From IMG/VR virus record IMGVR_UViG_3300032083_001532, positions 1-58,474 of that record: DNA of 58,474 nt. One strand, given 5' to 3'. The DNA comes from a virus. Taxonomy: Duplodnaviria > Caudoviricetes. The notes beneath the pieces are model-generated. The model worked only from the letters and a program-made list of their open reading frames with translations, was not told the origin of the DNA and did not search any database. The translations under genes were made by a program, and so were the position numbers. Below are positions 33,135 through 57,347 of this stretch, one piece after another; within the stretch, counting starts at the first letter, position 1; each line of letters starts with the position of its first letter.

Positions 33135-33138
33135 AATC

Positions 33139-43154: not shown

Positions 43155-43206
43155 ATCTACGTTATATTGACGCTATTGAAAGACGCCCCAGATTGTCTTT
43201 CTTGTT

Positions 43207-43258
43207 AGCGGGGTGGTGTTTGGGTTCCCTTCCAGTGACACCGCCCCGCTCTTTTTTT
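43207..43258 (+). terminator. + strand hairpin-terminator with a 16-nt loop antisense to the early-gene RBS motif (possible sRNA)
   Basis: 14-bp stem AGCGGGGTGGTGTT/GACACCGCCCCGCT with two G.U pairs (favouring + strand folding), loop TGGGTTCCCTTCCAGT, then C-T7. Confidence 0.7.
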
Positions 43259-43325
43259 GATCAGGGGCTTCGTCTCATTTGATTGTTACCCTGCTCCGCA
43301 CCTTACGGAAAGCAGCAGGCAGGGG

Positions 43326-43667
43326 TCAATCAAAAGGGATTTCATCGTCCAGATCAGGATCAAACCCACCAGCATCACCGAGCGAAAAGTCTTCGCCCCC
43401 GCCACCGTTGCGGGAGTTTTCGTATTCTTTCCTTTCGGTCTCACTCTGGACGTTGATGGCAAGCCCAACATAGGGTGTGCCCTTCTTGGACTTGTTCTTC
43501 CACCCGGACACCCGGATTTCATAGTCTTCACCCTTTTTGACAAGACCAATAATCTTTTTCAGGTCGTCCATTGATAGCGTGATGTTCCCTGAAAAGTCAG
43601 GCGACTTGTCGCTACGTCGGTTTTGCGGGATGAAAAGCGCCCCACCAGATTTATCATCATAAGCCAT
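43326..43667 (-). CDS. single-stranded DNA-binding protein (DUF736-like)
   Basis: GALF......KSPDFSG.I, VSGW...SKKG..Y, acidic tail ending DDEIPFD. Confidence 0.75.
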   Translation of the reverse strand: MAYDDKSGGALFIPQNRRSDKSPDFSGNITLSMDDLKKIIGLVKKGEDYEIRVSGWKNKSKKGTPYVGLAINVQSETERKEYENSRNGGGGEDFSLGDAGGFDPDLDDEIPFD

Positions 43668-43688
43668 TTGTCTTTCCTTTCTTGGCTA

Positions 43689-44510
43689 TTACGCCGCCTC
43701 TTCAAGTGAGGCGGTTCGTTCTTTGAACATGTTTGTGATTTCTTCAAGCAACGAGCTATTGCTTTCGGAGTAATATTCAAGGCGTGCCTTGTTGTCCTTC
43801 CAAATTTGACGAAGGTCAGCCTTGTTATCAACGCCCTCAATAAAGACAGCAAAGGCTTCAAGAACATCTTCATTATCTGTGGCGCTTTTGCTGATTTCAT
43901 AACCGGCAGGCTCCGGCTCGGCCTTGTCTTCAACATCGAGTTCATCAGTAACATCAAGGTCATCAATGTTCCCAACGGGCGGCTCTTCCTTTTCCAAGGG
44001 CGGCAGGCCAAACGCATCGTCGGTTTCCTTGGCGTCATCCATGGCAAATGGATCAGGCGCTTCGGTCGTTTCCTGATGGCCTTCAAAGGCGTCATGCCCT
44101 TCCGGGTCATCACCTGTTGAAAGCTGCAACAGCTTGAGGATCATGTACTTGTTAGCCCCGGTGATCGCCTTGTACAGGCCCTTGTCCCCAACACCGTTCC
44201 TGTGCCTGTCATTCCCGGCACCACCACCACCGAAGACAACTTCACTGCCACTGGCTACATGGTGAACCTTGTATTCCATGCGGACAAAGACGTTACCAAA
44301 CTTGTCGATGGGGGTGATGTCATTGACGGAAGAAATTATGACCAGCCCATATTTAAGCATCGTCGGCCTTACAGCTTCGATAACATCGGCCTCTCCGGCG
44401 AATTTATATCCGTGGAAGTCGTTGGTTCCTTTCTTTTCAACGTGGCCTATTTCACGAGCCACATGGAGTAATGCGTCATAGACGTTTGCTGTCTGTATTT
44501 CTTCGCTCAT
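43689..44510 (-). CDS. ERF-family single-strand annealing protein
   Basis: K.G.N.FHGYKFA.E.DV...VRP.M..YGL, GDK.LYKAITGA.KY......TGDDPE. Confidence 0.85.
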   Translation of the reverse strand: MSEEIQTANVYDALLHVAREIGHVEKKGTNDFHGYKFAGEADVIEAVRPTMLKYGLVIISSVNDITPIDKFGNVFVRMEYKVHHVASGSEVVFGGGGAGNDRHRNGVGDKGLYKAITGANKYMILKLLQLSTGDDPEGHDAFEGHQETTEAPDPFAMDDAKETDDAFGLPPLEKEEPPVGNIDDLDVTDELDVEDKAEPEPAGYEISKSATDNEDVLEAFAVFIEGVDNKADLRQIWKDNKARLEYYSESNSSLLEEITNMFKERTASLEEAA

Positions 44511-44752
44511 TCTTCTCTCCAGCATCGAATGCCGCCGTCAATAACACGGGTCGTGAACCTCTTGTTGTGCTTGCGTCCGTAATAGGATGCAGCGGCCCTT
44601 AGCCGAATAGCGTCCTTTGACTGACTACTACGGCATGGCAAATCAAAGTGATCGCCCACATTCATGATGTGAAACGGCCATCGTCGCCGCCTACTGGTCT
44701 CAACAGACGGAAGTGGCACGCCACTCTTGATTTCAAATTCAGTGTCATTCAT
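44507..44752 (-). CDS. small DNA-binding protein
   Basis: FEI..GVPLP......WPF..M.VGD.F.....L..AA..YG....F.TR....GIRCWR motif common in phages. Confidence 0.7.
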   Translation of the reverse strand: MNDTEFEIKSGVPLPSVETSRRRRWPFHIMNVGDHFDLPCRSSQSKDAIRLRAAASYYGRKHNKRFTTRVIDGGIRCWREE

Positions 44753-45725
44753 CGTTTCCCTTCTCTCTTTCTGGGTATAATTCCGGGTTTTCTTTCTTGT
44801 ATTGGGCGTATTGCCCACACCACCGCGACACCCGGCAGTAATCACCATCGCAGCGTGCCGGGGTTCCCGGCCTGTGTTTCAATTCGTACTGCTGGTCCTT
44901 CATGTTTTCTTCAATCCAGTCCAGCGCCTCTTTCTCTGTTTGTGCCGCCTTTGATGGCACCTTCGCCAGAGGTCCGGCCTTTGTGTAGCGGAACACCGCC
45001 CAGTCACCAGCCCGTAGCCAACGCTCTTCATCGGAGCAGGGGGGCAGCATATCCGGTTCATCAGCATAGGTTTCGTGGTCGTTATGAACATCCATATGCA
45101 TCTTCATGCGCGTGCGTATGAAGTCGGCAGTTTCTGCCATTGGCCATTTCTTGATATCCACCATGTGGACCGCAGCCTTTGGATATGTCTTTTTGGTATC
45201 GACCCGGCTTTGTTGCCAGTCACGCAGGATCGCGCAGATGCGAAGCCTTCGCACTTTATAGTTTGTGCAGGCTTCCACCAAGGCCCCGTAAACATTCAAT
45301 TGTTTGGCCCAGTCTTCCTTGTCTTTGTCTTGGTCTGCTGAAATTATGACTGACCACACAGAGGTAAACTTGTAGTCAATGATATCAACAACCGGTGTCC
45401 CGTCATCCGCCTCACCAACGTGCTGTACATCAATGGCACCCGACAAAACATAATCACCCACTTTCATGAACAGGCGTTGTTCTGTAAGATGTTCGTTATC
45501 GCCCCCGCTTTCGAGGACGTAATGGATCGCAGACCCGAACAACATCCAGACCGCTTCGGACACGTCCTGTTCGATTTCATCGTTGTGCATACGGCGCAAC
45601 GCTTTCACCTTCGGCGCATCAATAATATCGGTCACGGATTTATCGGCGGCACCCCGGCTATATTCGCGGCGTTCAAGCGCATTGATCAGTGGCGCAGGCA
45701 AGTTGAATTTGTTCGTGAATTTCAT
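44745..45725 (-). CDS. PD-(D/E)XK exonuclease (Cas4/RecB-like)
   Basis: MK.TNK.NLP, SVT.I, G.AIH, TEQRL, LSG.ID, IDYK.TSVW, QLNVY, C...E.W, RC..YC.V..WC. Confidence 0.85.
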   Translation of the reverse strand: MKFTNKFNLPAPLINALERREYSRGAADKSVTDIIDAPKVKALRRMHNDEIEQDVSEAVWMLFGSAIHYVLESGGDNEHLTEQRLFMKVGDYVLSGAIDVQHVGEADDGTPVVDIIDYKFTSVWSVIISADQDKDKEDWAKQLNVYGALVEACTNYKVRRLRICAILRDWQQSRVDTKKTYPKAAVHMVDIKKWPMAETADFIRTRMKMHMDVHNDHETYADEPDMLPPCSDEERWLRAGDWAVFRYTKAGPLAKVPSKAAQTEKEALDWIEENMKDQQYELKHRPGTPARCDGDYCRVSRWCGQYAQYKKENPELYPEREKGNDE

Positions 45726-45766
45726 GTCGGTTCCCTTCTACTGATTGGCAATTTAACAGCAATACG

Positions 45767-46141
45767 ATGAGTGGTCAAGTGTTCGAAAAGGCGTTAGCCG
45801 AATTTGTTATCATAGGGGAGCCATGTTCAAAGGCAAACAGCCGTAAGATTGTGAAGATAAAGGGAAAAACACGATCCATAAAATCAGACAAGGCGCTGGC
45901 CTATGAGAGAGACTTCCACAGTCAGTGCCCCAACCTTGATGAGGTCATCGAAGATGATGTTTGGGTAGACATAAGGATTTGGTACGCATCACGGCGTCCT
46001 GATCTGGATGAGAGCATTATACTGGATGCCATGCAAGGTCATATTTACAAAAATGACCGGCAGGTAAAGCTCAAACTGATTGTTCACAAGGGCGTGGACA
46101 AGGTAAATCCAAGAGCAGCAATAAGAGTTGGAACCCTTTGA
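45767..46141 (+). CDS. RusA-like Holliday junction resolvase
   Basis: GEP.SKANSR, SRRPDLDES.ILD.MQG.IY.NDRQV, DK.NPRA. Confidence 0.85.
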   Translation: MSGQVFEKALAEFVIIGEPCSKANSRKIVKIKGKTRSIKSDKALAYERDFHSQCPNLDEVIEDDVWVDIRIWYASRRPDLDESIILDAMQGHIYKNDRQVKLKLIVHKGVDKVNPRAAIRVGTL

Positions 46142-46142
46142 A

Positions 46143-46382
46143 ATGAAAGAACTATATCGGTCCATCATCAAGCAGGCAGCAAAAGACCTTTGCGGCAAAA
46201 ACGACAAAGACAGAATGGAGGTTGTTCGGTGGATGACCGGAGAGGATTTTGAGGAAACCTGCGTTGGTGCCGACGTAAAACCTGAACTGCTGAAAAAGTT
46301 TTTTGTGGCTATGGTGAAGGTGCCGTTGGATGAACGGAAGAGTTATTCCCAGTCACTAATCAGCGTTTTGGATGCATCGTAA
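46143..46382 (+). CDS. hypothetical protein
   Basis: LYRSII.QA..D...W...DFEE.C..A pattern; follows RusA. Confidence 0.6.
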   Translation: MKELYRSIIKQAAKDLCGKNDKDRMEVVRWMTGEDFEETCVGADVKPELLKKFFVAMVKVPLDERKSYSQSLISVLDAS

Positions 46383-46590
46383 CCCCGCCCGAAAAAAAAT
46401 CGGGCGGGTTATATATATAATAATATTATTATCTCTTACTGTAGATGATAATAATCTCTATCAGACTGTATTTATTATAAGCCCTTCACTTTATGTGAAG
46501 GGCTAATATAAGATATCTCATACTGTAGTTATCCCCATACTATATAATCTACTGTTATATATATAATAATATTATTTATATAACACGCGT
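46381..46590 (+). other. AT-rich putative replication origin
   Basis: extremely AT-rich island with 23-bp direct repeat GTTATATATATAATAATATTATT (46408-46430, 46554-46576), central inverted repeat AGCCCTTCAC/GTGAAGGGCT (46480-46504), repeated ACTGTA, GC hairpin at 46384-46408; just upstream of primase-helicase. Confidence 0.55.
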
Positions 46591-46711
46591 GCGTAGCAAA
46601 AATCGGGCCAAAAATAATTGCGGCACTACCTCAATTTTTCCTTGCAACGGACAGGCCCCTAGTGACAGGATCGCAGATGCGGCTTGGACTGATTAACTGG
46701 AAGGGAAAAAC

Positions 46712-48595
46712 TTGTCTACTACTTCACACGACAGCACACTTAACGACTTTGCTGAAACTTCACTACGCGATACAATTGTCTCAAAAGATTTGAGGCAAGG
46801 CCAGCATCGGCTCATCTGCCCGAACTGCTCACCGGGGCGAAAAAAATCATGGGAGCAATGCCTTTCCGTCTACATTGAACCGCACCGGGCGATGTATTCC
46901 TGCAAGCACTGCGCGTGGGAAGGCTCTGTGCCGCTGCGGGATAACATCGTTAATTTCAGGCCCAAGCAGCCGAAGGAAGAGGATGAAAAGGCGCTTGATC
47001 TGGGCTTCGACATCAGCCCACCCACGGAAAAACAATACCAGTACATGGAAAGCGTCAGGCATATACCGCGCACCACCGTCGATCACTACGAGCTATGCTC
47101 TGCCCAAAAATGGTTCCGGGCACACAAAGAAGAACGAGAGGCGTTAGGGTTCCCTTACCGTTCATCAGCAGCATCAGAGTTTCACGCCATCAAGTGGCGC
47201 AGCGACAAGAAGCAGTGGACACAGGATGGGGGTGCAAAAAGCTTCTTCGGCCTCAAGCAGTTTGAGCGGTCAGCATCCGGCCCCACCGAGGAAGACCCGC
47301 TCATCATCACGGAGGGTGAATTCGATGCGCTGGCAGCGCACGCAAGCGGATACCATCACGCCCTAAGCGTACCGAACGGGGCACCCATGAAACTAAGCAC
47401 ACAGAAGAAGGCTCCCGGCGACGACCGGAAATACCATTTCTTGTGGGCTGCTAGGAACTTGCTGGAAAATTGTGACAGGGCATATATTGCTTGTGATGCT
47501 GACGACCAAGGGGAAATCCTTGCGGAGGAACTGGGGCGCAGGATTGGCAAGATTAAATGCTGGCGCGTTAAGTACCCAGAGGACTGCAAAGACCTGAACG
47601 ATGTGCTGGTCAAGCACGGGAAGGATGAGGTCCAGAAGTGCATAAAGGATGCGGAACCCTTCCCGGTGTCAGGGCTTTACACGGTTGATGATTACCGTGA
47701 TCAGGTTAATGATCTTTATGAGAATGGCTTTGCCAAAGGGGCCACTATTGGCATTCCCGAAGTTGATGAGTTGATGACGATTGTTCCCGGCATGATGACG
47801 GTCGTGACCGGGGTGCCTTCGCACGGCAAATCAACTTTTGTGGACTACATGATGTTCCGTCTGGCTCGGGACCATGGGTGGCGGCACGCGGTCTGTTCAT
47901 TCGAGAACCCGCCATCCTTGCACATCGCAAAGCTGGCGCAGACGTTTACGCGCAAGCCTTTCTTCGATGGGCCGAACGAGCGAATGTCCCAATACGAAAA
48001 GGCGCTGGCTTTGGATTGGGTCAAGGATCGCTTTGTGTTCATCAGCGAGAGCGACGGGACGCCGCCTACGGTCGATAGCGTGCTTGAGCGTGCGAAGACT
48101 GCGGTCATGCGTTACGGGATAAACGGTCTGGTGATTGATCCGTATTCGCGCCTGAACGTCAAGGGCGAAGACGACACAGCAGGGATCGGTGACATGCTCA
48201 CGAAGGTGCAGGCGTTCGCAGCAGCGCACAGCGTCCATGTGTGGTTCGTGGCACACCCGAAGAAGCCGCAGTTTCCTGATGGGTATGTGCCAGCAGGCTA
48301 TGATATATCGGGGTCGGCCCACTGGTACAATCACACTGATTTTGGGGTTACCGTTCATCGCCCGGACAGGGAGAGCGCCAACGTAGAGGTACACGTTTGG
48401 AAGGTACGATGGGCAAACCTGCTTGGTAAACAGGGGCAAGCTGATATAAGATACGAACCTGTGACCAATCACTATTCGCAAAGGAATGGGTATGGCTACC
48501 AAGCGGAAGAGGAAGCGCAAAGTCCAGAGGAAGCCTTACGGCAGCGCGTCATCGACGGGGAGGCGCTCGAAGACCTCCCAGCATATCTCACTTGA
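46712..48595 (+). CDS. T7 gp4/Twinkle-type primase-helicase
   Basis: Zn finger CPNC...CKHC, TOPRIM ITEGEFDAL / D.D.QG / KDLND, Walker A TGVPSHGKST, VIDPY, VAHPKK, YDISGSAHW; TTG start after ACTGGAAGGGAAAAAC. Confidence 0.93.
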   Translation: MSTTSHDSTLNDFAETSLRDTIVSKDLRQGQHRLICPNCSPGRKKSWEQCLSVYIEPHRAMYSCKHCAWEGSVPLRDNIVNFRPKQPKEEDEKALDLGFDISPPTEKQYQYMESVRHIPRTTVDHYELCSAQKWFRAHKEEREALGFPYRSSAASEFHAIKWRSDKKQWTQDGGAKSFFGLKQFERSASGPTEEDPLIITEGEFDALAAHASGYHHALSVPNGAPMKLSTQKKAPGDDRKYHFLWAARNLLENCDRAYIACDADDQGEILAEELGRRIGKIKCWRVKYPEDCKDLNDVLVKHGKDEVQKCIKDAEPFPVSGLYTVDDYRDQVNDLYENGFAKGATIGIPEVDELMTIVPGMMTVVTGVPSHGKSTFVDYMMFRLARDHGWRHAVCSFENPPSLHIAKLAQTFTRKPFFDGPNERMSQYEKALALDWVKDRFVFISESDGTPPTVDSVLERAKTAVMRYGINGLVIDPYSRLNVKGEDDTAGIGDMLTKVQAFAAAHSVHVWFVAHPKKPQFPDGYVPAGYDISGSAHWYNHTDFGVTVHRPDRESANVEVHVWKVRWANLLGKQGQADIRYEPVTNHYSQRNGYGYQAEEEAQSPEEALRQRVIDGEALEDLPAYLT

Positions 48596-49088
48596 CTTCG
48601 GCACCCCAGAGGCTCGCAATCACAACACGATGCGTGTTGAGAATGTTGACCCCAAGGGCAACATTGTTCGGATCAGGAACCTAGATCAGACAGAATTTGA
48701 CAGGCTGGCCCTTGTTGGGGATATAACGCCAGACCAGTTTCAAGCGGGTCAGCAGTTCTCAAGCGCGTGTTGGAAGGCAGGGGGTTTTGTGAAGGCTGTG
48801 AATTGGGGGCGCACAGGTGGGAGCGCAGGTAACAGCCACGAAAGGCGAGCGGTCTTGTCGGCTATGGCGGCAGCAGAACCGCTTCACTACATGCAGAAGA
48901 ATTGCGGCAGGGATGTCGCGGGGTTGGTCGTTCGGGTGGCTATAGACCAAGAGCGATGCACGGGTAAGGCGCTGCAAGATTTACGGGGGGGGTTGGATGC
49001 GTTGGTGCGGTACTATTCCGCAGCCATAAAACGCAAACAAAAAAAGAGGGCGGCTGCTTTCGCAGCCGCCCTTTCTTCGGTCGGTTGA
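48492..49088 (+). CDS. DUF6456-like (GafA C-terminal-like) putative transcription regulator
   Basis: DRL...G.IT..QFQAG..F ... W ... LR.GLD.L..YY pattern; overlaps helicase 3' end; AAGGAA RBS. Confidence 0.55.
   Translation: MATKRKRKRKVQRKPYGSASSTGRRSKTSQHISLDFGTPEARNHNTMRVENVDPKGNIVRIRNLDQTEFDRLALVGDITPDQFQAGQQFSSACWKAGGFVKAVNWGRTGGSAGNSHERRAVLSAMAAAEPLHYMQKNCGRDVAGLVVRVAIDQERCTGKALQDLRGGLDALVRYYSAAIKRKQKKRAAAFAAALSSVG
49036..49078 (-). terminator. intrinsic terminator ending the early (- strand) region
   Basis: perfect AGGGCGGCTGC-TTTC-GCAGCCGCCCT stem; A-run on its left (U-tract on - strand), TTCTT on its right. Confidence 0.75.
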
Positions 49089-49131
49089 GTAACCTGCTAT
49101 TCAGGAAGTGCAATCCACCATGTAGTTGGGT

Positions 49132-49503
49132 TTATCCCCCATAGTTTTTTCCTTCCATTTCCTGAACGTCATCCTGTGCTTCGTACATGCTGTTCCATAC
49201 TTGGTGCAACATGCGCATCCGGTAATGATGGTCATCATCAAATTGGGACGCTTTGGCGACACGGTTCTTGAAGTTGGTGTAAGTGATGTTGTTGATTTCC
49301 TTTGTCAGTTCTTCAACAACGATTGGCTTGTCGATAAAGGCGCGGAACCGATAGTCCGTCCCGGCACCCTCAATTACATTTGCGTTTGTGTGCCCAAAGA
49401 TACTTTCGATGTCTCCGGGGAACCGGGCGCGGACGCAGAAGCGTTCGCTGTTATTCTTGTCTTCGACAACAGACAAGACTGCGTTTTCAGTAAATAACCA
49501 CAT
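49132..49503 (-). CDS. conserved hypothetical phage protein
   Basis: MW.F.....SVV.........VRAR..GDIE.....TDYRFRA......I.Y.NFK pattern. Confidence 0.75.
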   Translation of the reverse strand: MWLFTENAVLSVVEDKNNSERFCVRARFPGDIESIFGHTNANVIEGAGTDYRFRAFIDKPIVVEELTKEINNITYTNFKNRVAKASQFDDDHHYRMRMLHQVWNSMYEAQDDVQEMEGKNYGG

Positions 49504-49529
49504 ATGTTTTTCCTTCCAGTGATTTGACG

Positions 49530-49558: not shown

Positions 49559-49718
49559 GGGCTATACGCAAAGGCGTGCTAAAGTTTTATTGGTTTTCCC
49601 TTCCAAGTTAATAGTGATTGGTCACAAATAACCTAACGAATAAATGGCAGGGACCGGGATTAGCGGTAGCGAACCGCCTACCCGGCTTACGACACCCAGT
49701 TGCCGACACCGCGCAGTG

Positions 49719-50804: not shown

Positions 50805-50914
50805 GGTTCTTCCTTCCAGTTAAAATGTTATCAGTCACAATTTGCGACTAGGGTTATTGAAAATAACCTAACGAATGGGGTGGTGCGCAGTAGATGTACC
50901 GCGCACCACCAGCG

Positions 50915-51154: not shown

Positions 51155-51249
51155 TGGTTTTCCTTCCAGTTGATAGTGATTGGTCATAAATAACCTAACC
51201 GGGTAGCAGTTAGATCACTTACGTTCTCTAACTGCGTCCCCGAATGATT

Positions 51250-51828
51250 TTAGTTCATGCCAAGTTTGTCTTTGGCGTCATGGATGGTGGAAATCAGGCG
51301 TTGTCTTAGGGCCTTGTCGCCACGGTCCATAACCGCCGCAAGTTGCTCTGCCTCTGGCAGATAGACCTTCGCAAAGTCAGGGTCGTGATCGGCAATATCA
51401 AGTGTGTTGTCTATCAAGTCAGCATACTTGATGGTTTGTGTCGCATAGCCTTGAGAAGAGGCTCGGACAGCTTCGGCAGCTTTACGGGCGGGCCTGTTCA
51501 TGTCAGGATACGCTTCGTGTGTGTAACGATCCGTCAGATCATCCACCCATTCAGCCACAATCGGCCCAAATTGTTCATCAATTTCACGCCTTGTCACTCC
51601 GCAATCTTCGATTGTGTCATGCAAGACTGCGGCACAAAGCATAGCTTGGTTTGCCAAAGCTATGTGCTTCATGTCGTGGCCTGAGTTTATAAGCGTGTGT
51701 GCCACGTTCAGCGGATGCTGAATATATGGCGTGTCTGTGTATTTGCGGACTTGCCCATCATGGACTTCGGTCGCAAAATCAATAGCACGCTTAAATCCCG
51801 GCGAAGCCGTTATAGGATATGTCGTCAT
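51250..51828 (-). CDS. HD-domain hydrolase, SpoT/Mesh1-like small alarmone hydrolase
   Basis: A..FA...H.GQ.RK....PYI.HP..VA, AAVLHDTIEDC, V..LTD, IK.AD..DN. Confidence 0.85.
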   Translation of the reverse strand: MTTYPITASPGFKRAIDFATEVHDGQVRKYTDTPYIQHPLNVAHTLINSGHDMKHIALANQAMLCAAVLHDTIEDCGVTRREIDEQFGPIVAEWVDDLTDRYTHEAYPDMNRPARKAAEAVRASSQGYATQTIKYADLIDNTLDIADHDPDFAKVYLPEAEQLAAVMDRGDKALRQRLISTIHDAKDKLGMN

Positions 51829-51907
51829 GGTGTTTTCCCTTCCAAGTAAATAGTGATTTGTCATAAATTGACTAACGGGGACAGGGTGTTAGCCCTGCCC
51901 CCAATGC

Positions 51908-53437
51908 TTAGGCAGCGATTTGTGAGACATCTTCCTCGAAGAGGATGATCTGGCCAAAAGGCACCGGGTACTGGCCAGCCTTCAAGGCTTTGCCATAGCA
52001 CCCATGATGCTTGCGCCAGTTGACGCCGTTTCGATCAGACATCCAGTAGACTGGATAGTCTGGAGCGTCCCCAAAGTCACCATCGTATGCTATCAGGTCA
52101 GTGAAGTAGATTGCGCCCTTGATGTTGGCGCATTCTTCGTTGAGGTAATCGAACCCCGGATAAAACCGGGTGCCACCACCGCCAACGGGGTTGAATTTGA
52201 TTTCTTCACCAAGGGTGAAGGTATCAACCCCCTTCACGTCATAATCCACGTAGAGAACGTGGACAGTCTGTGGCGCAGCTTCTTCGACAAGTTCGTTGAG
52301 CTTTTCTTCGAAAAGCGCAAGCAAGTCTTCGTTGATAGATGCCGACGTGTCGATCAGCACTGCCAGTTCGCCTGCGTCTTCCTTCACAATGGAAGGAAGA
52401 TATACGTCACTGGCAATCCGGCGACGATTGGGACGGTTCCAAGTCGTAGACTTGGGGAACATCTGCGAGAATGCTTCCTGCAACTCGTCGCGCCAGTCGA
52501 TGGTCTTGACCTTCAACGCCTCATTAACGATGCGTTGAATGCCGCCATCACCGGCACCCTTGGTTGCGTTCTGCACTTGCGCAGCCTGCACCACGTTGAT
52601 CTGGGTGTCTTTTTCAAGCTTGTCCAGATCAGCCTGTGAAAACGGTTTACCGTCGTCATCGCATGGTGGCAGGATGTCCCCAAAGAAGTCGTCGTCTCCA
52701 AAGGTAACATCGTCACCTTCGGTGTCGTCGTCACCATTGCCGCCACTGTCACTGTCGTCACCTTCGGTGTCGTCGTCACCGGAGCCACCGTTACCTTCGG
52801 TATCGGCGTCTTCGCTGTCGTCGTCATCGTTGCCGGGATCATTACTGTTACCAGTAATATCTTCGTCGTCTTGGTCGTCACCTTCGGTGTCGCGATCACC
52901 AGACGGCTTGCCGTGGTAGCCACCTTCGCCATCTTCGCAACCTTCGCCATCTTCGCCATCTTCGCGCGGCTTGCCCCACGGTTCGGCAATAGGCTCTTTA
53001 GCCTTCCACAAGATACTATAAGTATCTTCTGCGGAACCGTTCAGTTCAGGGTCGTAAAGGCCCTTGCCGTGGGGGAATTCAAACAGCGGCTTACCCTTGC
53101 TATCTCTGGCATCCACAAGGATGCTGTTGATAGAGTAGTCCGTTGCCTCACCCCATGTGTCACGATCACGATTGCCCATCCGCACAGAGTGCAGGCAGGC
53201 AATATGTGACAGTTCATGTGCTGCCAGAGTAACAACCTCACCGATGGTGAGGATGTCGAGAAAATCCGGGTTGTAGTATACCCGGACGCCATCAGTCGCC
53301 GCTGTTTTGATAGGAAAACCGCCAAGGGTTTTCTTTGCTATCACATACGGCACCTTGACAGCCAAGGTTCCATAGAATGGCGAATGACGGAGCAAGCGAG
53401 TGTAAGCTTCGCTTAATTTTGCTTCTGGTGTCATCAT
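51908..53437 (-). CDS. DUF2201-type metallopeptidase + vWA domain protein
   Basis: TAATDG..VYYNP.F, AHELSH (HExxH), A.D..IN, acidic linker, W.RPNRR, IDTSASI (MIDAS), GGGGT.F, YFTD. Confidence 0.9.
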   Translation of the reverse strand: MMTPEAKLSEAYTRLLRHSPFYGTLAVKVPYVIAKKTLGGFPIKTAATDGVRVYYNPDFLDILTIGEVVTLAAHELSHIACLHSVRMGNRDRDTWGEATDYSINSILVDARDSKGKPLFEFPHGKGLYDPELNGSAEDTYSILWKAKEPIAEPWGKPREDGEDGEGCEDGEGGYHGKPSGDRDTEGDDQDDEDITGNSNDPGNDDDDSEDADTEGNGGSGDDDTEGDDSDSGGNGDDDTEGDDVTFGDDDFFGDILPPCDDDGKPFSQADLDKLEKDTQINVVQAAQVQNATKGAGDGGIQRIVNEALKVKTIDWRDELQEAFSQMFPKSTTWNRPNRRRIASDVYLPSIVKEDAGELAVLIDTSASINEDLLALFEEKLNELVEEAAPQTVHVLYVDYDVKGVDTFTLGEEIKFNPVGGGGTRFYPGFDYLNEECANIKGAIYFTDLIAYDGDFGDAPDYPVYWMSDRNGVNWRKHHGCYGKALKAGQYPVPFGQIILFEEDVSQIAA

Positions 53438-53558
53438 GGTTGATGTTTCCCTTCCAGTAATTGTTACCAGTCACAATTTGTGACCGGGGCTATTGAAAAT
53501 AACCTAACCGGGATGCGGTTGGATCACTTACGTTCTCCAACCACAGCCCGAATGATTT

Positions 53559-54452
53559 TTAGGTGGATTTGCCGCCACCCGACAAAAAGATGCTTGCCAT
53601 TTCGGCAACATCTTCTGCGGCATCAGCCGCTTTGTCACGAAGATCAGGATCGGATTTCAATTGATCCCTAGAATAGGGAGCAATGTCATCCATGATCCGC
53701 TTTGCGGCCCTTGTCAGGGCCGGGTCGTTGGTCAGGTTCAGATGGGGCAGGGCTTCGGCCAGATCAACCACATGGTTGATTGTGGCGTTGTAGATGTCCC
53801 GCTTGCCACCGTTGCCGGTGTCCTGCCCATAATTGCGCAGGGCGTCGGCAAGATTGCCGACCAGATCGACCACCTTTGTGGCAGGCTCCAAAACAGCGTC
53901 GTTCAGACGCTGGTTCAGCTTTTCGTTCACCGATGCTTCGATAGCGGCGAGAGCATCCTTGGATGCTTTCACGCGGATGTCGTCGGTGTCTGGCACGGCT
54001 TGGTATTCGACTTCACAGACAAATTTGTCCCGAATGTCATCCTTTGAAGGATAGTCCCCTTCATTAAACGCGGTATTCAAGATCAATCTTGCTTCGTCAA
54101 CGGCTTCGCCGTACCCGACTACGAACTGGTCAGCAGCACTATCAAATGCCAGTTTGGCATCCTTGATTGCTTCGTCGCATTTGGTGAATGCGGACATCGG
54201 CAATAGCCGCCAACCACTTTCGTCCCATGGCAGGGTCCATTCTTTCATGGCACGCCGGACATGTTCGCTATGCGTTTTCATGTCCTTGAGTGATTGCACA
54301 TCGACCAGCGGCTTACTGACTTTGAAGTCAGCGCTTGACTGGTGTTTGCTCTGCACTTCCGTGGCAAGCTGGTCATCCAGCTTGCGACCAGACCATTTTT
54401 TGATAGTCACCTTTACCAAGGTGCATCGTTGAGATAAGTCTTTCACGATCAT
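53559..54452 (-). CDS. DUF3150-like protein
   Basis: LV.V.I..WSG.KLD, SK.L, TLPW...G.RLLP, F...DYP, LNLT.DP.L; sits between AAA and vWA genes. Confidence 0.7.
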   Translation of the reverse strand: MIVKDLSQRCTLVKVTIKKWSGRKLDDQLATEVQSKHQSSADFKVSKPLVDVQSLKDMKTHSEHVRRAMKEWTLPWDESGWRLLPMSAFTKCDEAIKDAKLAFDSAADQFVVGYGEAVDEARLILNTAFNEGDYPSKDDIRDKFVCEVEYQAVPDTDDIRVKASKDALAAIEASVNEKLNQRLNDAVLEPATKVVDLVGNLADALRNYGQDTGNGGKRDIYNATINHVVDLAEALPHLNLTNDPALTRAAKRIMDDIAPYSRDQLKSDPDLRDKAADAAEDVAEMASIFLSGGGKST

Positions 54453-54559
54453 GGTTTTTTCCCTTCCAGTTTAGTGACCAGTCACAGTTTGTGACCGGGA
54501 CCAGTGTAAATGGCCTAACCGGGACAATGCTAATGCATTGCCCCGAATACCTTCAAATA

Positions 54560-55582
54560 TTATTGGTTGCCGAATTCGTTCCGCATTTTGACGCCCCAGT
54601 CACTTTCAAGAATTGAAGCATTCAATGCTTCAATCATTTCGACAGTGACCGATTGGAATTCACGGGGAAGACGTTCCACGTATGCTCCGAATGCGTCAAC
54701 TGTTTCGTCTTTGATTGCGTTAGCAATCAAGCCGGTAACAGCATAGAGTGCCGATGGGTCCGTTGGAACCAAGGCACCCTGCGGGTTGTTGCGAATTTCA
54801 GCCGGTGTTGGCAAGCTATCAATGGTCCGTAGGAACCCAATGAATTCCTTGCTTGCGGCTTCGCCAAGATAGCCAAGAATACCCTCTTCGAGTTCATTCT
54901 GTGGCATATCAAGCTGCATAATGTCAGAGACATTATGCCATGTCCGCAATGTCGGGAATGTGTCAGCTTTCGGATCGAAATCCACCAGCAATTCCGGGCG
55001 ACCTTCGGTGAACACCAGCACTTCCGGCACCAAGTTTAACTTGGTAGCCAGTGCCCGGAAACAATCGGTAGAGGCGACCACATCAATGTGGTTCCACCGG
55101 GTTTTGACCTGTGTACCCATTTCATGGGTGCCTGCCTTGTGTTCCCGTTTGTTGGATGCTCCAACAAATGACACGCCTTTAGGCAGCGGATATTGGCCGA
55201 TACGACGATCCATCACCATCGTGCCAGCCGCATTCTGCGTCATCTGGAACGCTTGCGAGAATTCATCCATAAAGATGATGCCCTGCCAGTCAGGCTCTTT
55301 GTGGAGTTCCACAAAGCGACCGTTTAGTTCATCCCAAAAGGCAGGTGGATACCACCTAGTGGTGCCATCTTCGACCTTTGGCGTGCCGTTGAAGTCAACA
55401 GCGTCCATCATGGACAGATCGCAAACGATCAGTCCATAATCGGGGATGTGGTGCGTCCTGATGTGCTTCGCCACATTGCGAACAGTCGTCGTTTTCCCGA
55501 TACCGGGAGCCGACCACATAAAGACGTTCTTGCGAGCAAGAACCATGGCCGTGATGTAGTTTTGTGTTTGGCTAATAAGCAT
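54560..55582 (-). CDS. MoxR/AAA_5-type AAA+ ATPase
   Basis: WSAPGIGKT Walker A, D..D..G.P, IIFMDE Walker B, ASN, R..H, FPT.RTW. Confidence 0.9.
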   Translation of the reverse strand: MLISQTQNYITAMVLARKNVFMWSAPGIGKTTTVRNVAKHIRTHHIPDYGLIVCDLSMMDAVDFNGTPKVEDGTTRWYPPAFWDELNGRFVELHKEPDWQGIIFMDEFSQAFQMTQNAAGTMVMDRRIGQYPLPKGVSFVGASNKREHKAGTHEMGTQVKTRWNHIDVVASTDCFRALATKLNLVPEVLVFTEGRPELLVDFDPKADTFPTLRTWHNVSDIMQLDMPQNELEEGILGYLGEAASKEFIGFLRTIDSLPTPAEIRNNPQGALVPTDPSALYAVTGLIANAIKDETVDAFGAYVERLPREFQSVTVEMIEALNASILESDWGVKMRNEFGNQ

Positions 55583-55744
55583 GGCTTATTTTTCCCTTCC
55601 AGTAGTAGTGACCAGTCACAATTTGAGACTGGGGTTATTGAAAATAACCTAACGAATAACTTAACAAAATCAGTGACCTAGCCCCCTATCACCGTAAGGT
55701 TCTAGGGGGCGTAGGCACTGGAAGGGCACCATTGCCCAACGTTA

Positions 55745-56035
55745 CTAGCCTACGGCTAGTTCAGCCTGTCGCCGTGAGGCTCTGGCCTTGTTCAGGTTTT
55801 CAGCCGATACGATAGAGTATCGGCGCTGATGCACTTCGCCTTCGGAGCCAAGCACCGGGAACTTGATTGTTCCATTCTTTTCCATCTGGAAAAGAACGCG
55901 CATGGCACCCTTGGTGGTTCGGTATGGCTCATTATCCAAGTGTAACGCCCATTCAAAAGCCTTGGCTTTGCGGTTGTAGCACTTGAACTTGCCGGAGTTC
56001 CAGCCGCCAAATCCATGCTCAACAATGTAGAACAT
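55745..56035 (-). CDS. small early protein
   Basis: GGGAG RBS before ATG 56035. Confidence 0.6.
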   Translation of the reverse strand: MFYIVEHGFGGWNSGKFKCYNRKAKAFEWALHLDNEPYRTTKGAMRVLFQMEKNGTIKFPVLGSEGEVHQRRYSIVSAENLNKARASRRQAELAVG

Positions 56036-56045
56036 TGTGTTCTCC

Positions 56046-56231
56046 CTATCTGTTGATAAAGTCGTTGATTGAGGCACCTTCTTCGGAGAAGAAGCCTACG
56101 TTCATCACGTCAACACCGCCAAGCCAAGCCCCAAACAATGAGGCGGTCAGGCCCAAGAGGATAAACAAGTTTATCCCGCATAGGACCGCAAGCGTTGTTG
56201 CCAGTGGTGTGACATATTTAATGTTTTTCAC
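56046..56231 (-). CDS. small membrane protein
   Basis: GTG start after repeat-element RBS; long hydrophobic stretch. Confidence 0.6.
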   Translation of the reverse strand: MKNIKYVTPLATTLAVLCGINLFILLGLTASLFGAWLGGVDVMNVGFFSEEGASINDFINR

Positions 56232-56298
56232 GGTTTGTTCCTTCCAGTTGGTAATAACCTAACCGGAACAAGGCGTTAGCCTTGTCCCGAATGCAGTA

Positions 56299-56550
56299 TT
56301 AGTGGGCTGGCAGCACTTCGGCTACCACATCGACCACTTCGGCACCCTTATAGGGTGAGCCGTAGAGGTCGGCACAGCCGCTAAAGCGGCCTTCAAAATC
56401 ACCGTCTTCGTCACGGACAACATCAATTACCCGCAGGCCAGCAAGATAGACTTCTATCTTGCTAATCTCATTAACGGTTAAGCCTTCGGCGTCACCGTTA
56501 ATCAGGTAGCAGATTGTTGCCATAGGTACTGTCACTTCAGTGGTGTTCAT
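56299..56550 (-). CDS. small early protein
   Basis: repeat-element RBS; P...CYLINGD..GL...E pattern. Confidence 0.7.
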   Translation of the reverse strand: MNTTEVTVPMATICYLINGDAEGLTVNEISKIEVYLAGLRVIDVVRDEDGDFEGRFSGCADLYGSPYKGAEVVDVVAEVLPAH

Positions 56551-56617
56551 GGTGTTTTCCTTCCAGTTGGTAATAACCTAACCGGAACAACACGTTAGTG
56601 TTGTCCCGAATGCAGTA

Positions 56618-56827
56618 TTAGTCTATCCAAGGGGTGAACTCTCGTTCACCAGCAAAGATCAGCAGGTACTGTTCCCTGTAAGGGGACAGATTGAGCAGGG
56701 CACCAAATTCAAATCCAAGGATGTTGAATTTGAGTGTGCGAGTGGTCTCATAGACCAGTTCCTTAGTGTTGTTTCCCTGTTCGTCAGTATCCTTACGGAT
56801 AAAGTGTTGAGTATGTTTGTTGTACAT
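56618..56827 (-). CDS. small early protein
   Basis: AAGGGAG RBS before ATG 56827; flanked by repeat elements. Confidence 0.6.
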   Translation of the reverse strand: MYNKHTQHFIRKDTDEQGNNTKELVYETTRTLKFNILGFEFGALLNLSPYREQYLLIFAGEREFTPWID

Positions 56828-56884
56828 TCTATGTACTCCCTTTTGTTTGAAATAACTAAACCGGAACAAGGGGTTACAAGTAAC

Positions 56885-57315
56885 CCCCTGTTCCGAATAA
56901 ACAGCGTTTAACAGCCTGAAAAATAGGCTACGCTGTCCTTTTCTGGAAAAGGAAAGGATTGCACTTCCTGCCATGCCTCCGGCATTATTGGGATTGTCTT
57001 TGCTGCGCACAGTCCAGAGGACCATGCGAGGCAAAGCCAGCGCCCACACGGAGCATGTGTCGTCACGCACAGCAGGTTACTCGAACGGGCCGAGGTCCAA
57101 CTTCCGTCCGGCACCCTTTAGGGTAACCGACAGACAAGGCTTCACACGAAGCAGTCAATGTCCCACTTTGGAATGGTCTTTGGCCTCTCTCTCATGTGAA
57201 TACCAGAGGTATCGTGTAAGAGACAAACCGCATCAGCAATCGCCGCGGACCGAAGGTATTTATGCCGTGGCCCCTTCGGAGGGCCGTGGCTCTCGACGTT
57301 GCCGCCGAAAGCCCC
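56885..57315 (-). ncRNA. long structured leader / candidate ncRNA
   Basis: no credible ORF; successive stems with GCAA and cUUCGg tetraloops and G.U pairs on the - strand; begins just after a TTGACA promoter. Confidence 0.55.
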
Positions 57316-57318
57316 ATT

Positions 57319-57347
57319 ACTAAACCAAACGGTAAAGCATTTGTCAA
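57319..57347 (-). promoter_or_regulatory. candidate early promoter
   Basis: TTGACA-17 bp-TTTAGT on - strand; -35 overlapped by inverted repeat CAAGCCC-TTTA-GGGCTTG (57345-57362). Confidence 0.5.

What the first reader, a model, noticed from the sequence alone, without database searches (positions are those of the whole stretch)
43167..57347. Candidate RNA-based master control system for the early regulon (repeat leaders + anti-RBS hairpin RNA + long leader RNA)
Seen in sequence, four interlocking non-coding signals: (1) a shared structured leader before most early genes ending in ACUGGAAGG(G)AA; (2) a hairpin-terminator at 43207-43258 whose loop is the exact antisense of that motif; (3) a ~430-nt structured leader at the start of the early region, with a condensed opposite-strand copy at the far end of the operon; (4) a GTGAC-NN-GTCAC palindrome inside many leaders. 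Late genes mostly use ordinary GGAG-type RBSs instead. Inference: the phage gives early/replication genes a common translational 'address' that one RNA (and one DNA-binding protein) can switch off together. I do not recognise this as a described system.
Basis: partly seen in the sequence, partly recalled or inferred. Interest (0 to 1): 0.88.

Follow-up and report, generated by a model that had tools for sequence, protein, structure and literature searches.

The report
Repeated early-gene leaders plus anti-RBS terminator loop
An uncultured aquatic phage puts the same structured leader and ribosome-binding site in front of about half of its early genes, and the terminator hairpin on the late-gene strand carries the exact complement of that site in its loop, which suggests, but does not prove, that an RNA switches the early genes off.

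Summary
Three of the four signals are real. ACTGGAAGG occurs 11 times (0.40 expected), only at 43-57 kb. Nine copies lie 7-12 nt before early-gene starts, inside about 10 repeated intercistronic cassettes: a gene-end hairpin, GGTTAGGTTATT, palindromic boxes, then the extended SD. All 16 cassette-type hairpins fold better as sense RNA. Hairpin 43208-43249 with its T-run is the strongest + strand terminator. It folds better on the + strand, and its 18-nt loop holds the exact 12-nt complement of the motif. A second complement (55717-55726) is predicted to sequester the neighbouring RBS in cis. The "condensed opposite-strand copy" of the long leader is not supported.

The closest described system is the SAS/ESAS repeats of Cluster K mycobacteriophages, whose function is still unknown. 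Checking Anaya, I found that its single reverse SAS lies in the apical loop of a conserved, covarying RNA structure. That structure sits in the intergenic region where late transcription is reported to start in Adephagia. TM4 and Pixie right ends lack it.

No close relatives and no RNA data exist for the window, so trans repression is plausible (about 0.45) but unproven. I rate it a new variant of a known kind.

The parts
43208..43249 (+). Terminator hairpin: 12-bp stem with one G.U pair, and an 18-nt loop.
   Evidence: It is worth -29.4 kcal/mol, and folds at -31.5 on the + strand against -26.3 on the - strand.
43225..43236 (+). Anti-RBS 12-mer TTCCCTTCCAGT in the loop. It is the exact complement of ACTGGAAGGGAA.
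   Evidence: In the modelled 83-nt RNA the first 6 nt have unpaired probability 1.0, and the next 4 are mostly paired.
43250..43258 (+). T-run TCTTTTTTT, the terminator tail.
43140..43168 (+). Candidate sigma-70-like promoter TTGGTA-17-TATATT, which could start an RNA of about 85 nt ending at the terminator.
   Evidence: 9 of 12 matches. Such matches are no more frequent than in shuffles (15 found against 15.9 expected), so this is weak.
43178..43201 (+). Predicted 5' hairpin of the candidate short RNA.
43276..43322 (-). Gene-end hairpin after the SSB-like gene.
   Evidence: sense strand favoured by 3.9 kcal/mol.
42872..42887 (-). TGGAAGGAAA Shine-Dalgarno of gene 42368-42871.
46694..46711 (+). 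AACTGGAAGGGAAAAAC before the TTG start of the primase-helicase gene.
48459..48491 (+). Box CTGTGACCAATCACTATT plus AAAGGA before gene 48492-49088, embedded in the 3' end of the primase gene.
   Evidence: (I19).
49137..49157 (-). Relic copy of RBS plus ATG at the 3' end of gene 49132-49503, opening a 13-codon mini-ORF.
   Evidence: (D13).
49504..49522 (-). CACTGGAAGGAAAAACAT, the Shine-Dalgarno of gene 49132-49503.
49593..49640 (-). Orphan medium-class cassette with no gene directly behind it. A TTGACA-type promoter-like site follows.
   Evidence: (D5).
50805..50914 (-). Long-class cassette before gene 50136-50804.
51155..51249 (-). Medium-class cassette before gene 50915-51154.
51829..51907 (-). 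Medium-class cassette before the HD-domain gene 51250-51828.
53438..53558 (-). Long-class cassette before the VWA/metallopeptidase gene.
54453..54559 (-). Long-class cassette before the DUF3150 gene. Hairpin 1 carries two compensatory pair changes.
55583..55744 (-). Long-class cassette before the MoxR-like ATPase gene, with an extra upstream hairpin.
55717..55726 (-). Cis anti-RBS. It reads CCCUUCCAGU in the - strand RNA and pairs with the RBS at 55594-55603. The outer arm overlaps the stop codon of gene 55745-56035.
   Evidence: I1; MFE -85.4 kcal/mol, z -6.3.
56232..56298 (-). Short-class cassette before gene 56046-56231.
   Evidence: (D7).
56551..56617 (-). Short-class cassette before gene 56299-56550.
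   Evidence: (D7).
56828..56898 (-). Degenerate cassette before gene 56618-56827: a 16-bp hairpin, GGTTTAGTTATT and a GGGAG Shine-Dalgarno.
56899..57311 (-). Long structured region downstream of the putative early promoter. It holds an unsupported 90-aa ORF at 57142-57414.
57318..57347 (-). Putative early promoter TTGACA-17-TTTAGT, read by eye.
   Evidence: The scan does not list it because the -10 hexamer lacks A at position 2.
57489..57502 (-). TTGTGACCCGTCAC box in the divergent control region, not next to an RBS.

Best explanation
SHOWN: the cassettes. The early and replication half of this roughly 58-kb, apparently lytic phage is divided by about 10 copies of a portable intercistronic RNA cassette. 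Each cassette has three parts:
- a gene-end hairpin just after the stop codon, followed by the U-rich CCGGUUAGGUUAUU; I read this as a leaky terminator or a processing/stability element;
- no, one or two further small hairpins, plus a TTRTGAC-N3-TMAC box;
- an extended Shine-Dalgarno, ACUGGAAGG(G)AA, 7-12 nt before the start codon.
The cassettes fold on the sense RNA.

INFERRED: what the cassettes do. They give early genes a uniform translation start. Because they are repeated, they also serve as recombination joints.

SHOWN: the hairpin. Hairpin 43208-43249 with its T-run is an intrinsic terminator for the + strand, which is the late-gene strand. Its 18-nt loop displays the exact complement of the early SD.

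INFERRED (about 0.45): what the loop does. The RNA that ends there is either read-through from the late operon, which stops at 42357 with no terminator of its own, or an RNA of about 85 nt from a promoter-like site at 43140-43168. Through its C-rich loop it pairs with the shared SD of about 11 early mRNAs and lowers their translation once late transcription is running. The same pairing is used in cis at the MoxR gene, where an anti-RBS overlapping the upstream stop codon would couple translation of the two genes.
For: - Motif statistics and positions.
- Cassette classes.
- Compensatory changes: 6 of 11 pairs in the gene-end hairpins and 2 of 18 pairs in the long-class hairpins.
- Strand asymmetry: 16 of 16 cassette-type hairpins are more stable as - strand RNA, by 0.4-7.7 kcal/mol. 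The 43207 hairpin is 5.2 kcal/mol more stable on the + strand. Random coding windows show no bias: mean -0.09, 53% below zero, and 3.5% reach +5.2.
- It is the strongest + strand terminator, and none lies between 42357 and it.
- Net interaction energies: 11 of 22 early start regions at -7 kcal/mol or better, against 0 of 46 late ones at -5 or better.
- Cis anti-RBS in the MFE fold, z -6.3.
- Early/late RBS split.
- Cluster K parallel. In Anaya the single reverse SAS lies in an apical loop of a structure conserved in 135 records. In that structure 94.5% of cells pair against 31-46% when slid, 7 pairs change on both sides (2 of 500 shuffles reach this), and the covariation score is reached by 0 of 500 shuffles.
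- The Cluster K structure sits in the Adephagia gp92-93 intergenic region, where 'late transcription appears to initiate' (PMC11373665, passage read).
- The distant relative MinM2 also has a repeated palindrome before many early genes.
Against: - There is no transcript evidence of any kind.
- No relative carries the motif, so co-variation between loop and motif is untested.
- The motif copy in the loop is a direct copy with respect to the - strand operon, and it sits where a cassette would be expected. It could therefore be a cassette remnant around which a terminator evolved.
- Four of the 12 loop bases are predicted to be paired within the loop.
- The promoter-like site is no better than chance matches.
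- Five of the 11 ACTGGAAGG copies (nine start-proximal, the loop copy and the + strand copy at 55717) read GGAAGGAA, which would leave a one-base bulge.
- In Cluster K, Amohnition keeps 17 canonical SAS copies but its loop lacks one base. SirPhilip's loop has diverged. The right ends of TM4 (4.8 kb) and Pixie (6.1 kb) hold SAS copies but no anti-SAS-like 11-mer. SAS-type repeats therefore exist without such a loop.
Confidence: 0.45

Rival explanations
1. By-product. The cassettes are real regulatory and recombination modules. The 43207 hairpin is only the + strand terminator that stops late transcription from running antisense into the early genes. Its loop holds a remnant of a degenerate cassette between the SSB and HNH genes and has no function in trans.
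For: - The copy has the same orientation as the cassettes of the - strand operon. It lies 27 nt behind a typical gene-end hairpin (43276-43322) and is followed by TTTCAATAGC, a piece of the long-class cassette.
- Other remnants exist: the orphan cassette at 49593-49640 and the RBS+ATG relic at 49137-49157.
- Similarity to the 55706-55730 copy beyond the 11-nt core is not significant; 35 of 500 shuffles reach it.
- TM4 and Pixie right ends have SAS copies without an anti-SAS.
Against: - A 12-nt exact match placed precisely in the loop of the strongest + strand terminator is unlikely by drift.
- The stem contains a G.U pair that works only on the + strand.
- The HNH gene downstream has no SD of its own at the 43154 start.
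- There is an independent parallel in Cluster K phages.
Confidence: 0.33
2. Protein-read address. The extended SD, with its A-rich 3' flank, is recognised by a phage or host protein, either a translational repressor or an SD-cutting nuclease like T4 RegA or RegB. The copy in the hairpin loop, read on the - strand mRNA, would be a decoy or an autoregulatory site.
For: - The strong RegB sites of T4 share a long SD-containing consensus, GG*AGRAYARAA, in early intergenic regions (PMC3014915, passage read). The motif here is likewise an SD plus an A-rich tail.
- Many small early ORFs have no known family.
- Pope et al. left open whether an RNA or a protein binds SAS.
Against: - The Pfam scans of the early proteins returned no RegA, RegB or other RNA-binding family, and the window has no CsrA.
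- The hairpin is weaker on the - strand, which has an A-C mismatch there.
- The sub-threshold CsrC match at 49031-49209 scores 30.7 bits against a gathering score of 61, and rests mainly on a terminator.
Confidence: 0.12
3. DNA-level signals. The boxes in the long and medium cassettes are promoters and operators, like ESAS, PeSL or stoperators. The conserved ACTGG and CCGGTT are parts of those DNA sites and not RNA structure.
For: - The box also occurs away from any RBS, at 57489-57502 in the control region and at 58364-58377.
- The MinM2 palindrome is almost invariant in its 25 copies, as a protein site would be.
- The Adephagia ESAS motifs each hold SigA-like -35 and -10 hexamers plus an inverted repeat thought to bind a regulator (PMC11373665).
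Against: - No consistent sigma-70-like hexamer pair could be placed in the cassettes (reading; the scan lists none there).
- G.U and compensatory changes with a sense-strand bias point to RNA.
- The window has no HTH_3-type regulator and no integrase.
- The short class has no box at all.
- This rival is not exclusive of the best explanation.
Confidence: 0.15

Closest known systems
SAS/ESAS of Cluster K mycobacteriophages (Pope et al. 2011, PMC3203893; passages read)
   Same: - An asymmetric repeat that contains the SD core and is conserved beyond it.
- It sits a few bases before start codons and is confined to the non-structural half of the genome.
- Almost all copies are in one orientation, with a rare reverse copy.
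- About half of the copies carry upstream inverted repeats.
- The function is still unknown in 2024-2025 (PMC11373665, PMC12699233; passages read).
- In Anaya-like phages I found the reverse copy in the apical loop of a conserved structured RNA.
   Different: - The phage lineage and host are unrelated, and the motif differs (ACTGGAAGGRAA against GGGATAGGAGCCC).
- The spacing to the start is 7-12 nt instead of 3-9.
- Here the upstream repeats show compensatory and G.U changes that fit RNA hairpins, whereas Pope et al. found little support for hairpins.
- Here the complement lies in a terminator loop on the opposite strand. In Cluster K it lies on the gene strand.
PeSL promoter-terminator cassettes of T4-like phages (PMC4122927 abstract read; PMC2839356 search listing only)
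   Same: Short composite intergenic cassettes with a stem-loop are repeated between early, mostly unknown genes, and act as points of recombination. Contigs of related strains show joints at the short cassettes (weak evidence).
   Different: No early promoter could be recognised in the cassettes. The conserved part here is the RBS. The phage family is different.
SD-targeting C-rich loops of S. aureus RNAIII and Rsa sRNAs (PMC2790875 passages read; PMC2837412 listing only)
   Same: An unpaired UCCC-type motif in a hairpin loop pairs with the SD of several mRNAs and blocks initiation. These sRNAs have a 5' hairpin and a terminator.
   Different: Here the seed would lie in the terminator loop itself, would be 12 nt long, and would be aimed at a repeated phage motif. 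Expression is not shown.
T4 RegB and RegA shut-off of early mRNAs (PMC3014915, passages read)
   Same: The logic is the same: early messages share a feature in the initiation region that allows them to be shut off together after the early period.
   Different: In T4 the agents are proteins. No homologue appeared in the Pfam scans of the early proteins.
Antisense RNA immunity factors P1/P7 c4 and P4 CI, and the T7 RNase III intercistronic sites (recalled; no call)
   Same: Phage RNAs that pair with repeated target sites near an RBS, and repeated structured elements between early genes.
   Different: Not tested here; named only as leads.

Membership tests
SAS/ESAS (Cluster K type start-associated sequences) | Asymmetric repeat of about 13 bp that contains the SD core and is conserved beyond it. 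| tested here: met
   ACTGGAAGG(G)AA: 11 exact 9-mers against 0.40 expected.
SAS/ESAS (Cluster K type start-associated sequences) | Lies within a few bases of the start codon. | tested here: met
   Nine copies lie 7-12 nt before a start. Cluster K spacing is 3-9 bp.
SAS/ESAS (Cluster K type start-associated sequences) | Restricted to the non-structural half, in one orientation, with rare reverse copies. | tested here: met
   All copies lie at 43-57 kb. TGGAAGG precedes 11 of 22 early and 1 of 46 late genes. There is one inverted copy at 55717 and one copy in the terminator loop.
SAS/ESAS (Cluster K type start-associated sequences) | Upstream imperfect inverted repeats in about half of the sites (ESAS). 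| tested here: met
   Seven of about 10 leaders have palindromic boxes.
SAS/ESAS (Cluster K type start-associated sequences) | Consensus GGGATAGGAGCCC, and membership of actinobacteriophage Cluster K. | tested here: not met
   The motif is different. The nearest cultured relative is cyanophage MinM2, at 36% identity in the primase. The window works like SAS/ESAS but is not a member.
PeSL cassettes (T4-like) | An early promoter combined with a stem-loop terminator in one short intergenic unit. | tested here: inconclusive
   Stem-loops are present. No consistent promoter hexamers were found in the cassettes.
PeSL cassettes (T4-like) | Serve as junctions of insertions and deletions between close relatives. 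| tested here: inconclusive
   Joints 56206>56546 (1 run) and 56595>56058 (2 runs of 2 studies) lie at the short cassettes. The sides are short (22-40 nt) and repeats can mimic joints.
Trans-acting SD-targeting sRNA (RNAIII/Rsa type) | A transcript of its own, or a stable processed 3' fragment. | not testable with these tools
   No RNA run is listed for this phage.
Trans-acting SD-targeting sRNA (RNAIII/Rsa type) | An unpaired C-rich motif complementary to the SD of several targets. | tested here: met
   The loop reads UUCCCUUCCAGU. Six of its 12 nt are fully unpaired. Eleven of 22 early targets have net energy of -7 kcal/mol or better, and no late target reaches -5.
Trans-acting SD-targeting sRNA (RNAIII/Rsa type) | Seed and targets conserved or co-varying in relatives. 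| not testable with these tools
   No relative with the motif was found.
Intrinsic (rho-independent) terminator | A G+C-rich stem followed directly by a U-run. | tested here: met
   Twelve pairs, -29.4 kcal/mol, then TCTTTTTTT, on the + strand only.
Intrinsic (rho-independent) terminator | A short loop of 3-8 nt. | tested here: not met
   The loop is 18 nt, so the scan does not list the hairpin.
T4 RegA/RegB system | A RegA or RegB homologue is encoded. | tested here: not met
   The Pfam scans of the early proteins returned no such family. Distant homologues cannot be excluded.

The most novel reading that the evidence does not exclude
Some phages may time the switch from early to late with RNA alone. 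Early genes carry a repeated, extended RBS. The late transcription unit carries one hairpin loop complementary to it, so the rise of late RNA titrates the early ribosome-binding sites. In this aquatic phage the loop sits in the 3' terminator. In Anaya-like mycobacteriophages it sits in a conserved structured RNA in the intergenic region where late transcription is reported to start in Adephagia. If both are functional, this would explain the unexplained SAS repeats and would be a convergent mechanism in unrelated phages.
Probability: 0.25. Interest if true: 0.85.

Novelty: new variant of a known kind. Interest (0 to 1): 0.62.

Why it matters
Start-associated repeats on phage early genes have been known since 2011. 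The passages I read from 2024 and 2025 still call their role ill-defined. This window is an independent example from an unrelated aquatic phage. Together with the loop I found in Anaya-like phages, it names a concrete candidate partner: an RNA loop complementary to the repeat, carried on the late-gene strand. That turns an open question into a simple experiment with leader reporters and the hairpin, using compensatory mutations. The experiment can be done at once in the tractable Mycobacterium smegmatis phages. Even if the loop proves inert, the cassettes show how an uncultured phage standardises translation starts, and probably how it shuffles early genes.

Tried and rejected
RELATIVES
- megablast and blastn of the early region against cultured phages found no match.
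- Protein-guided scans of IMG/VR were run with primase, ERF, MoxR and P0122. Only primase gave relatives (8 loci at 36-37% identity), and they are AT-rich and lack the motif.
- The DNA pattern GGTTAGGTTATT-N(3-33)-ACTGGAAGG gave 0 stretches in IMG/VR. This gap range does not cover the long class.
- The 18-mer GTTAGGTTATTTTCAATA gave 6 stretches, all at 35-38% GC with no other motif and no blastn similarity, so they are chance hits.
- The metagenome scan with the VWA protein gave 1 locus at 31% identity, with tightly packed genes and no repeats.
- The GTDB scan with P0122 gave none.
- ERF has 197 hits, none between 54% and 100% identity. DUF3150 has 4 hits in all.
- A three-protein MoxR alignment (24-28% identity) was judged too weak to use as a scan query.

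MinM2
- Its repeated SD-proximal word is short. No antisense copy in a hairpin and no comparable terminator was found. At 69% GC the test is weak.

RNA EVIDENCE
- No RNA holder is listed.
- Contigs of four DNA runs were laid. The table of differences is cut (316 rows not shown), so nothing can be said about variation in the hairpin.

OTHER CHECKS
- RNAcofold of the short RNA with the leaders cannot model loop-to-single-strand contacts and did not separate early from late targets. I replaced it with duplex energy plus opening energies.
- Rfam gave no hit at gathering score. The sub-threshold CsrC and BjrC68 matches at 49031-49209 rest on a terminator.
- No Rfam family covers the Cluster K element.
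- ORFs in the long leader have no Pfam or PHROG family. HMMER against 1.84 billion proteins finds only one 90-aa protein, 96% identical, from a near-identical relative, so their coding status is undecided.
- Similarity between 43196-43330 (+) and 55640-55765 (-) beyond the core is not significant.
- A closing helix CCGGUU/AACUGG appears in the folds of the short class but has no co-variation to support it.

LITERATURE AND TOOLS
- The first search and one search were too loose and useless. One search found no paper.
- The ZoeJ paper (Dedrick 2019) was not found or read.
- Supplements are closed and may list the reverse SAS sites or RNA-seq detail that bears on the Cluster K claim.
- I found no mention of an anti-SAS hairpin in the passages read of PMC3203893, PMC12699233 and PMC11373665, nor through searches. 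That is not proof that it is unpublished.

Full report
WHAT THE WINDOW IS. The window is a complete IMG/VR virus record of 58,474 bp, rated 96% complete. Late genes run on the + strand from the small terminase gene at 57765, across the record ends, to a 3083-aa polyvalent protein (LPD38 plus NUDIX) that ends at 42357. The early and replication genes occupy 42368-56827. Most are on the - strand: HNH/DUF968, an SSB-like protein, ERF, an exonuclease, an HD-domain protein, a VWA-metallopeptidase, DUF3150, a MoxR-like ATPase and small unknown ORFs. A + strand island at 45767-49088 holds RusA and the primase-helicase. No integrase, HTH_3 regulator, CsrA, tRNA or Rfam family was found. The nearest cultured relative is the freshwater cyanophage MinM2 (also deposited as Pag-Yong1 and Pra-JY27). 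Its primase is 36% identical and its gene order matches, including a giant last late gene.

THE REPEATED LEADERS ARE REAL. ACTGGAAGG occurs 11 times against 0.40 expected, always between 43228 and 56567. Nine copies lie on the gene strand 7-12 nt before a start codon. Looser forms precede further early genes (42871, 44752, 45725, 51828). For the counts I used a crude gene call and adjusted it as follows. I dropped the antisense ORFs inside the late operon. I also dropped four doubtful ORFs (56035-56262, 57142-57744, 58312-58467, 56618-56974). I added 56046-56231 and 56618-56827, and I reset the HNH start to 43154. With that list, TGGAAGG precedes 11 of 22 early genes and 1 of 46 late genes. 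GAAGG precedes 13 of 22 early and 4 of 46 late genes. GGAG/GAGG precedes 3 of 22 early and 23 of 46 late genes. Some late starts are probably mis-called.

CASSETTE ANATOMY. The motif is the 3' end of a larger cassette. Directly after the stop codon of the preceding gene comes a hairpin with a conserved base (UCGGG...CCCGG) and a variable interior. Then comes GGTTAGGTTATT (15 matches at <=2 mismatches against 2.38 expected). After that:
- the 4 long-class copies have two further hairpins, GGTTATT-TTC-AATAACC and CCGGTCACA-AAT-TGTGACTGG;
- the 3 medium-class copies have a TTRTGAC-N3-TCAC box;
- the 2 short-class copies have nothing more.
The extended SD closes the cassette.

THE CASSETTES ACT AS RNA ON THE SENSE STRAND. 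In an alignment of seven gene-end hairpins, 6 of 11 pairs show changes on both sides that keep the pair, and one U.G pair is present in all seven. In the four long-class leaders, hairpin 1 has two compensatory pair changes, and hairpin 2 varies by G.U/A-U and C-G/U.G exchanges. All 16 cassette-type hairpins of the - strand units are more stable as - strand RNA than as + strand RNA, by 0.4 to 7.7 kcal/mol. Four hundred random coding windows show no such bias (mean -0.09; 53% below zero). The copies are paralogues and so not independent, but the direction is uniform. I could not place a consistent sigma-70-type promoter inside the cassettes. The box also occurs away from any RBS, at 57489-57502 in the divergent control region, so a DNA-binding protein is not excluded.

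THE HAIRPIN AT 43207-43258. The coordinates and the claim are correct: a 12-bp stem, an 18-nt loop, and TCTTTTTTT on the + strand. Loop bases 43225-43236 are exactly complementary to ACTGGAAGGGAA. My own scan of the whole window ranks it the strongest + strand terminator (-29.4 kcal/mol). No + strand terminator lies between the end of the late operon at 42357 and this hairpin. Late transcripts would therefore run antisense through the last two - strand genes and end here. Unlike every cassette hairpin, this one is better on the + strand (-31.5 against -26.3 kcal/mol), because a U.G pair becomes an A-C mismatch on the other strand. Only 3.5% of random windows show that much + strand bias. A promoter-like site, TTGGTA-17-TATATT at 43140-43168, could also start an RNA of about 85 nt with a 5' hairpin. 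Matches of that quality are as common in shuffled sequence, so this is weak.

IS PAIRING FEASIBLE? In the modelled RNA the first six bases of the anti-RBS are fully unpaired, and four further bases form a weak inner helix. I summed the duplex energy and the cost of opening both partners. Eleven of 22 early start regions come out at -7.4 to -13.0 kcal/mol. The best late one is -2.4, and none of the 46 late regions reaches -5. This partly follows from the motif match itself. It does show that the sites are accessible enough.

A SECOND ANTI-RBS ACTS IN CIS. The only ACTGGAAGG on the 'wrong' strand inside the - strand operon (55717) reads CCCUUCCAGU in the early mRNA. In the minimum-energy fold of 55770-55560 it pairs with the RBS of the MoxR gene 113 nt downstream. 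It closes a multi-hairpin junction, and the helix continues over the start codon. The upstream arm overlaps the stop codon of the preceding gene (-85.4 kcal/mol, z -6.3). That is the classical arrangement for translational coupling, and it suggests that the phage does use pairing to this RBS.

WHAT IS NOT SUPPORTED. The region between the putative early promoter (TTGACA-17-TTTAGT at 57347-57318, read by eye) and the first early gene is strongly structured, but on both strands. It has no Rfam match. It holds a 90-aa ORF whose only database match is a 96% identical protein from a near-identical relative. It has no detectable similarity to the 43100-43340 region. Similarity between the two anti-RBS contexts does not extend significantly beyond the 11-nt core.

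RELATIVES. None was found in cultured phages, IMG/VR, JGI metagenome contigs or GTDB genomes.
- Near-identical strains occur in seawater and freshwater DNA runs, but only as short contigs.
- Those contigs show joints at the short cassettes: 56206>56546 in one run, and 56595>56058 in two runs of two studies. This fits cassette-mediated gene shuffling, but repeats can mimic such joints.
- MinM2 has 25 copies of the palindrome GTTCA-N3-TGAAC, while the 50 shuffles gave none. They usually read ATCCGGTTCAGCCTGAACC.
- The palindrome lies 11-38 nt before the start of 13 of 65 - strand genes and 3 of 37 + strand genes. A repeated hairpin in front of early genes is therefore a trait of the wider lineage. 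I found no anti-RBS terminator there.

COMPARISON WITH WHAT IS KNOWN. The closest described system is the SAS/ESAS pair of Cluster K mycobacteriophages.
- SAS is a 13-bp asymmetric repeat that contains AGGAG and lies 3-7 bp before the starts of non-structural genes.
- About half of the SAS sites have upstream 17-bp inverted repeats (ESAS).
- The authors left open whether an RNA or a protein binds SAS (PMC3203893).
- Later papers still call the role ill-defined, and place SigA-like promoters in the ESAS (PMC11373665; PMC12699233).
The PeSL cassettes of T4-like phages (PMC4122927 abstract) share the cassette-as-recombination-joint idea. T4 RegB and RegA share the logic of shutting off early messages through their initiation regions (PMC3014915). 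S. aureus RNAIII and the Rsa sRNAs share the mechanism of a C-rich loop pairing with an SD (PMC2790875).

A PARALLEL I DID NOT EXPECT. I fetched Anaya to see where its reverse SAS lies.
- In 25000-60835, 16 SAS copies are on the + strand and one is on the - strand.
- Read on the + strand, which is the gene strand, that one copy is CCUCCUAUCCC. It forms the apical loop of a hairpin GCGCGG/CCGCGC on top of a 10-bp stem. It lies in the unannotated gp96-gp97 intergenic region, behind a terminator.
- The 161-nt region matches 135 Mycobacterium phage records at 75-100% identity, mostly unannotated.
- In a nine-phage alignment the structure has 43 pairs. 94.5% of cells pair, against 31-46% when the partners are slid.
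- Seven pairs change on both sides (2 of 500 shuffles reach this), and the covariation score is 0.180 against 0.135 (0 of 500).
- The loop is identical in 7 of the 9 phages.
- In Adephagia the element lies at 58611-58772 and gp93 starts at 58879. [quoted passage not shown]
In two unrelated phages, then, the strand and region of late transcription carry one hairpin loop complementary to the repeated early RBS.

EVIDENCE AGAINST THE PARALLEL. Amohnition keeps 17 canonical SAS copies, yet its loop lacks one base. SirPhilip's loop has diverged. The last 4.8 kb of TM4 and the last 6.1 kb of Pixie hold SAS copies but no anti-SAS-like 11-mer; I did not scan their whole genomes. I did not see this element mentioned in the passages I read. 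I could not read the ZoeJ paper or any supplement.

VERDICT. The cassettes are a solid, RNA-level, start-associated repeat system of a kind already described, here in a new lineage and with a new motif. The terminator loop is a genuine, strand-specific anti-RBS. I put its action in trans at about 0.45 and the remnant reading at about 0.33. Protein-read or DNA-level signals are lesser possibilities and are partly compatible with the main reading. Expression data or a simple reporter test would settle it.

Noticed in passing
L023 34800-34960 (Mycobacterium phage Anaya, record 59799-59959), and L024-L031: A conserved structured non-coding element of Anaya-like Cluster K phages. Its apical loop, CCUCCUAUCCC, is the complement of the SAS repeat. 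It matches 135 records, co-variation is supported, and no Rfam family covers it. It lies in the intergenic region where late transcription is reported to start in Adephagia.
   Followed up: partly
window 46384-46600: A + strand terminator at 46384-46408 is followed by an AT-rich stretch with two exact 23-nt direct repeats 146 nt apart (46408-46430 and 46554-46576) and palindromes. It lies just upstream of the primase-helicase gene and is a likely replication origin.
   Followed up: no
window 57545-57620: Repeats of GTAGGCAGAGGCGTGCA, with an overlapping palindrome, lie in the divergent region before the small terminase gene. They may be a packaging site or a late control site.
   Followed up: no
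window 33106-42357: A 3083-aa polyvalent protein (LPD38 and NUDIX domains) is the last late gene. MinM2 has a 2803-aa counterpart annotated RelA/SpoT.
   Followed up: no
window 52690-52965: Tandem and interspersed repeats inside the VWA/metallopeptidase gene encode an acidic low-complexity linker.
   Followed up: no
window 49137-49157: A near copy of the RBS-plus-start of gene 49132-49503 sits at the 3' end of the same gene. It opens a 13-codon mini-ORF just before the bidirectional terminator at 49047-49072 and looks like a scar of cassette recombination.
   Followed up: partly
L014 and L015 (Synechococcus phage MinM2): Twenty-five copies of the palindrome GTTCA-N3-TGAAC, oriented with transcription by their flanks. 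They precede 13 of 65 - strand and 3 of 37 + strand genes. An unannotated HNH/DUF968-like reading frame lies at about 31354-31583.
   Followed up: partly
window 42861-43154: The HNH/DUF968 gene appears to start at 43154 with no Shine-Dalgarno. The nearest SD-like sequence is the motif in the hairpin loop, 70 nt upstream.
   Followed up: partly
window 49031-49209 (- strand): A sub-threshold Rfam CsrC match (30.7 bits against a gathering score of 61). It rests mainly on the terminator plus a few GGA words, so I treat it as chance.
   Followed up: yes
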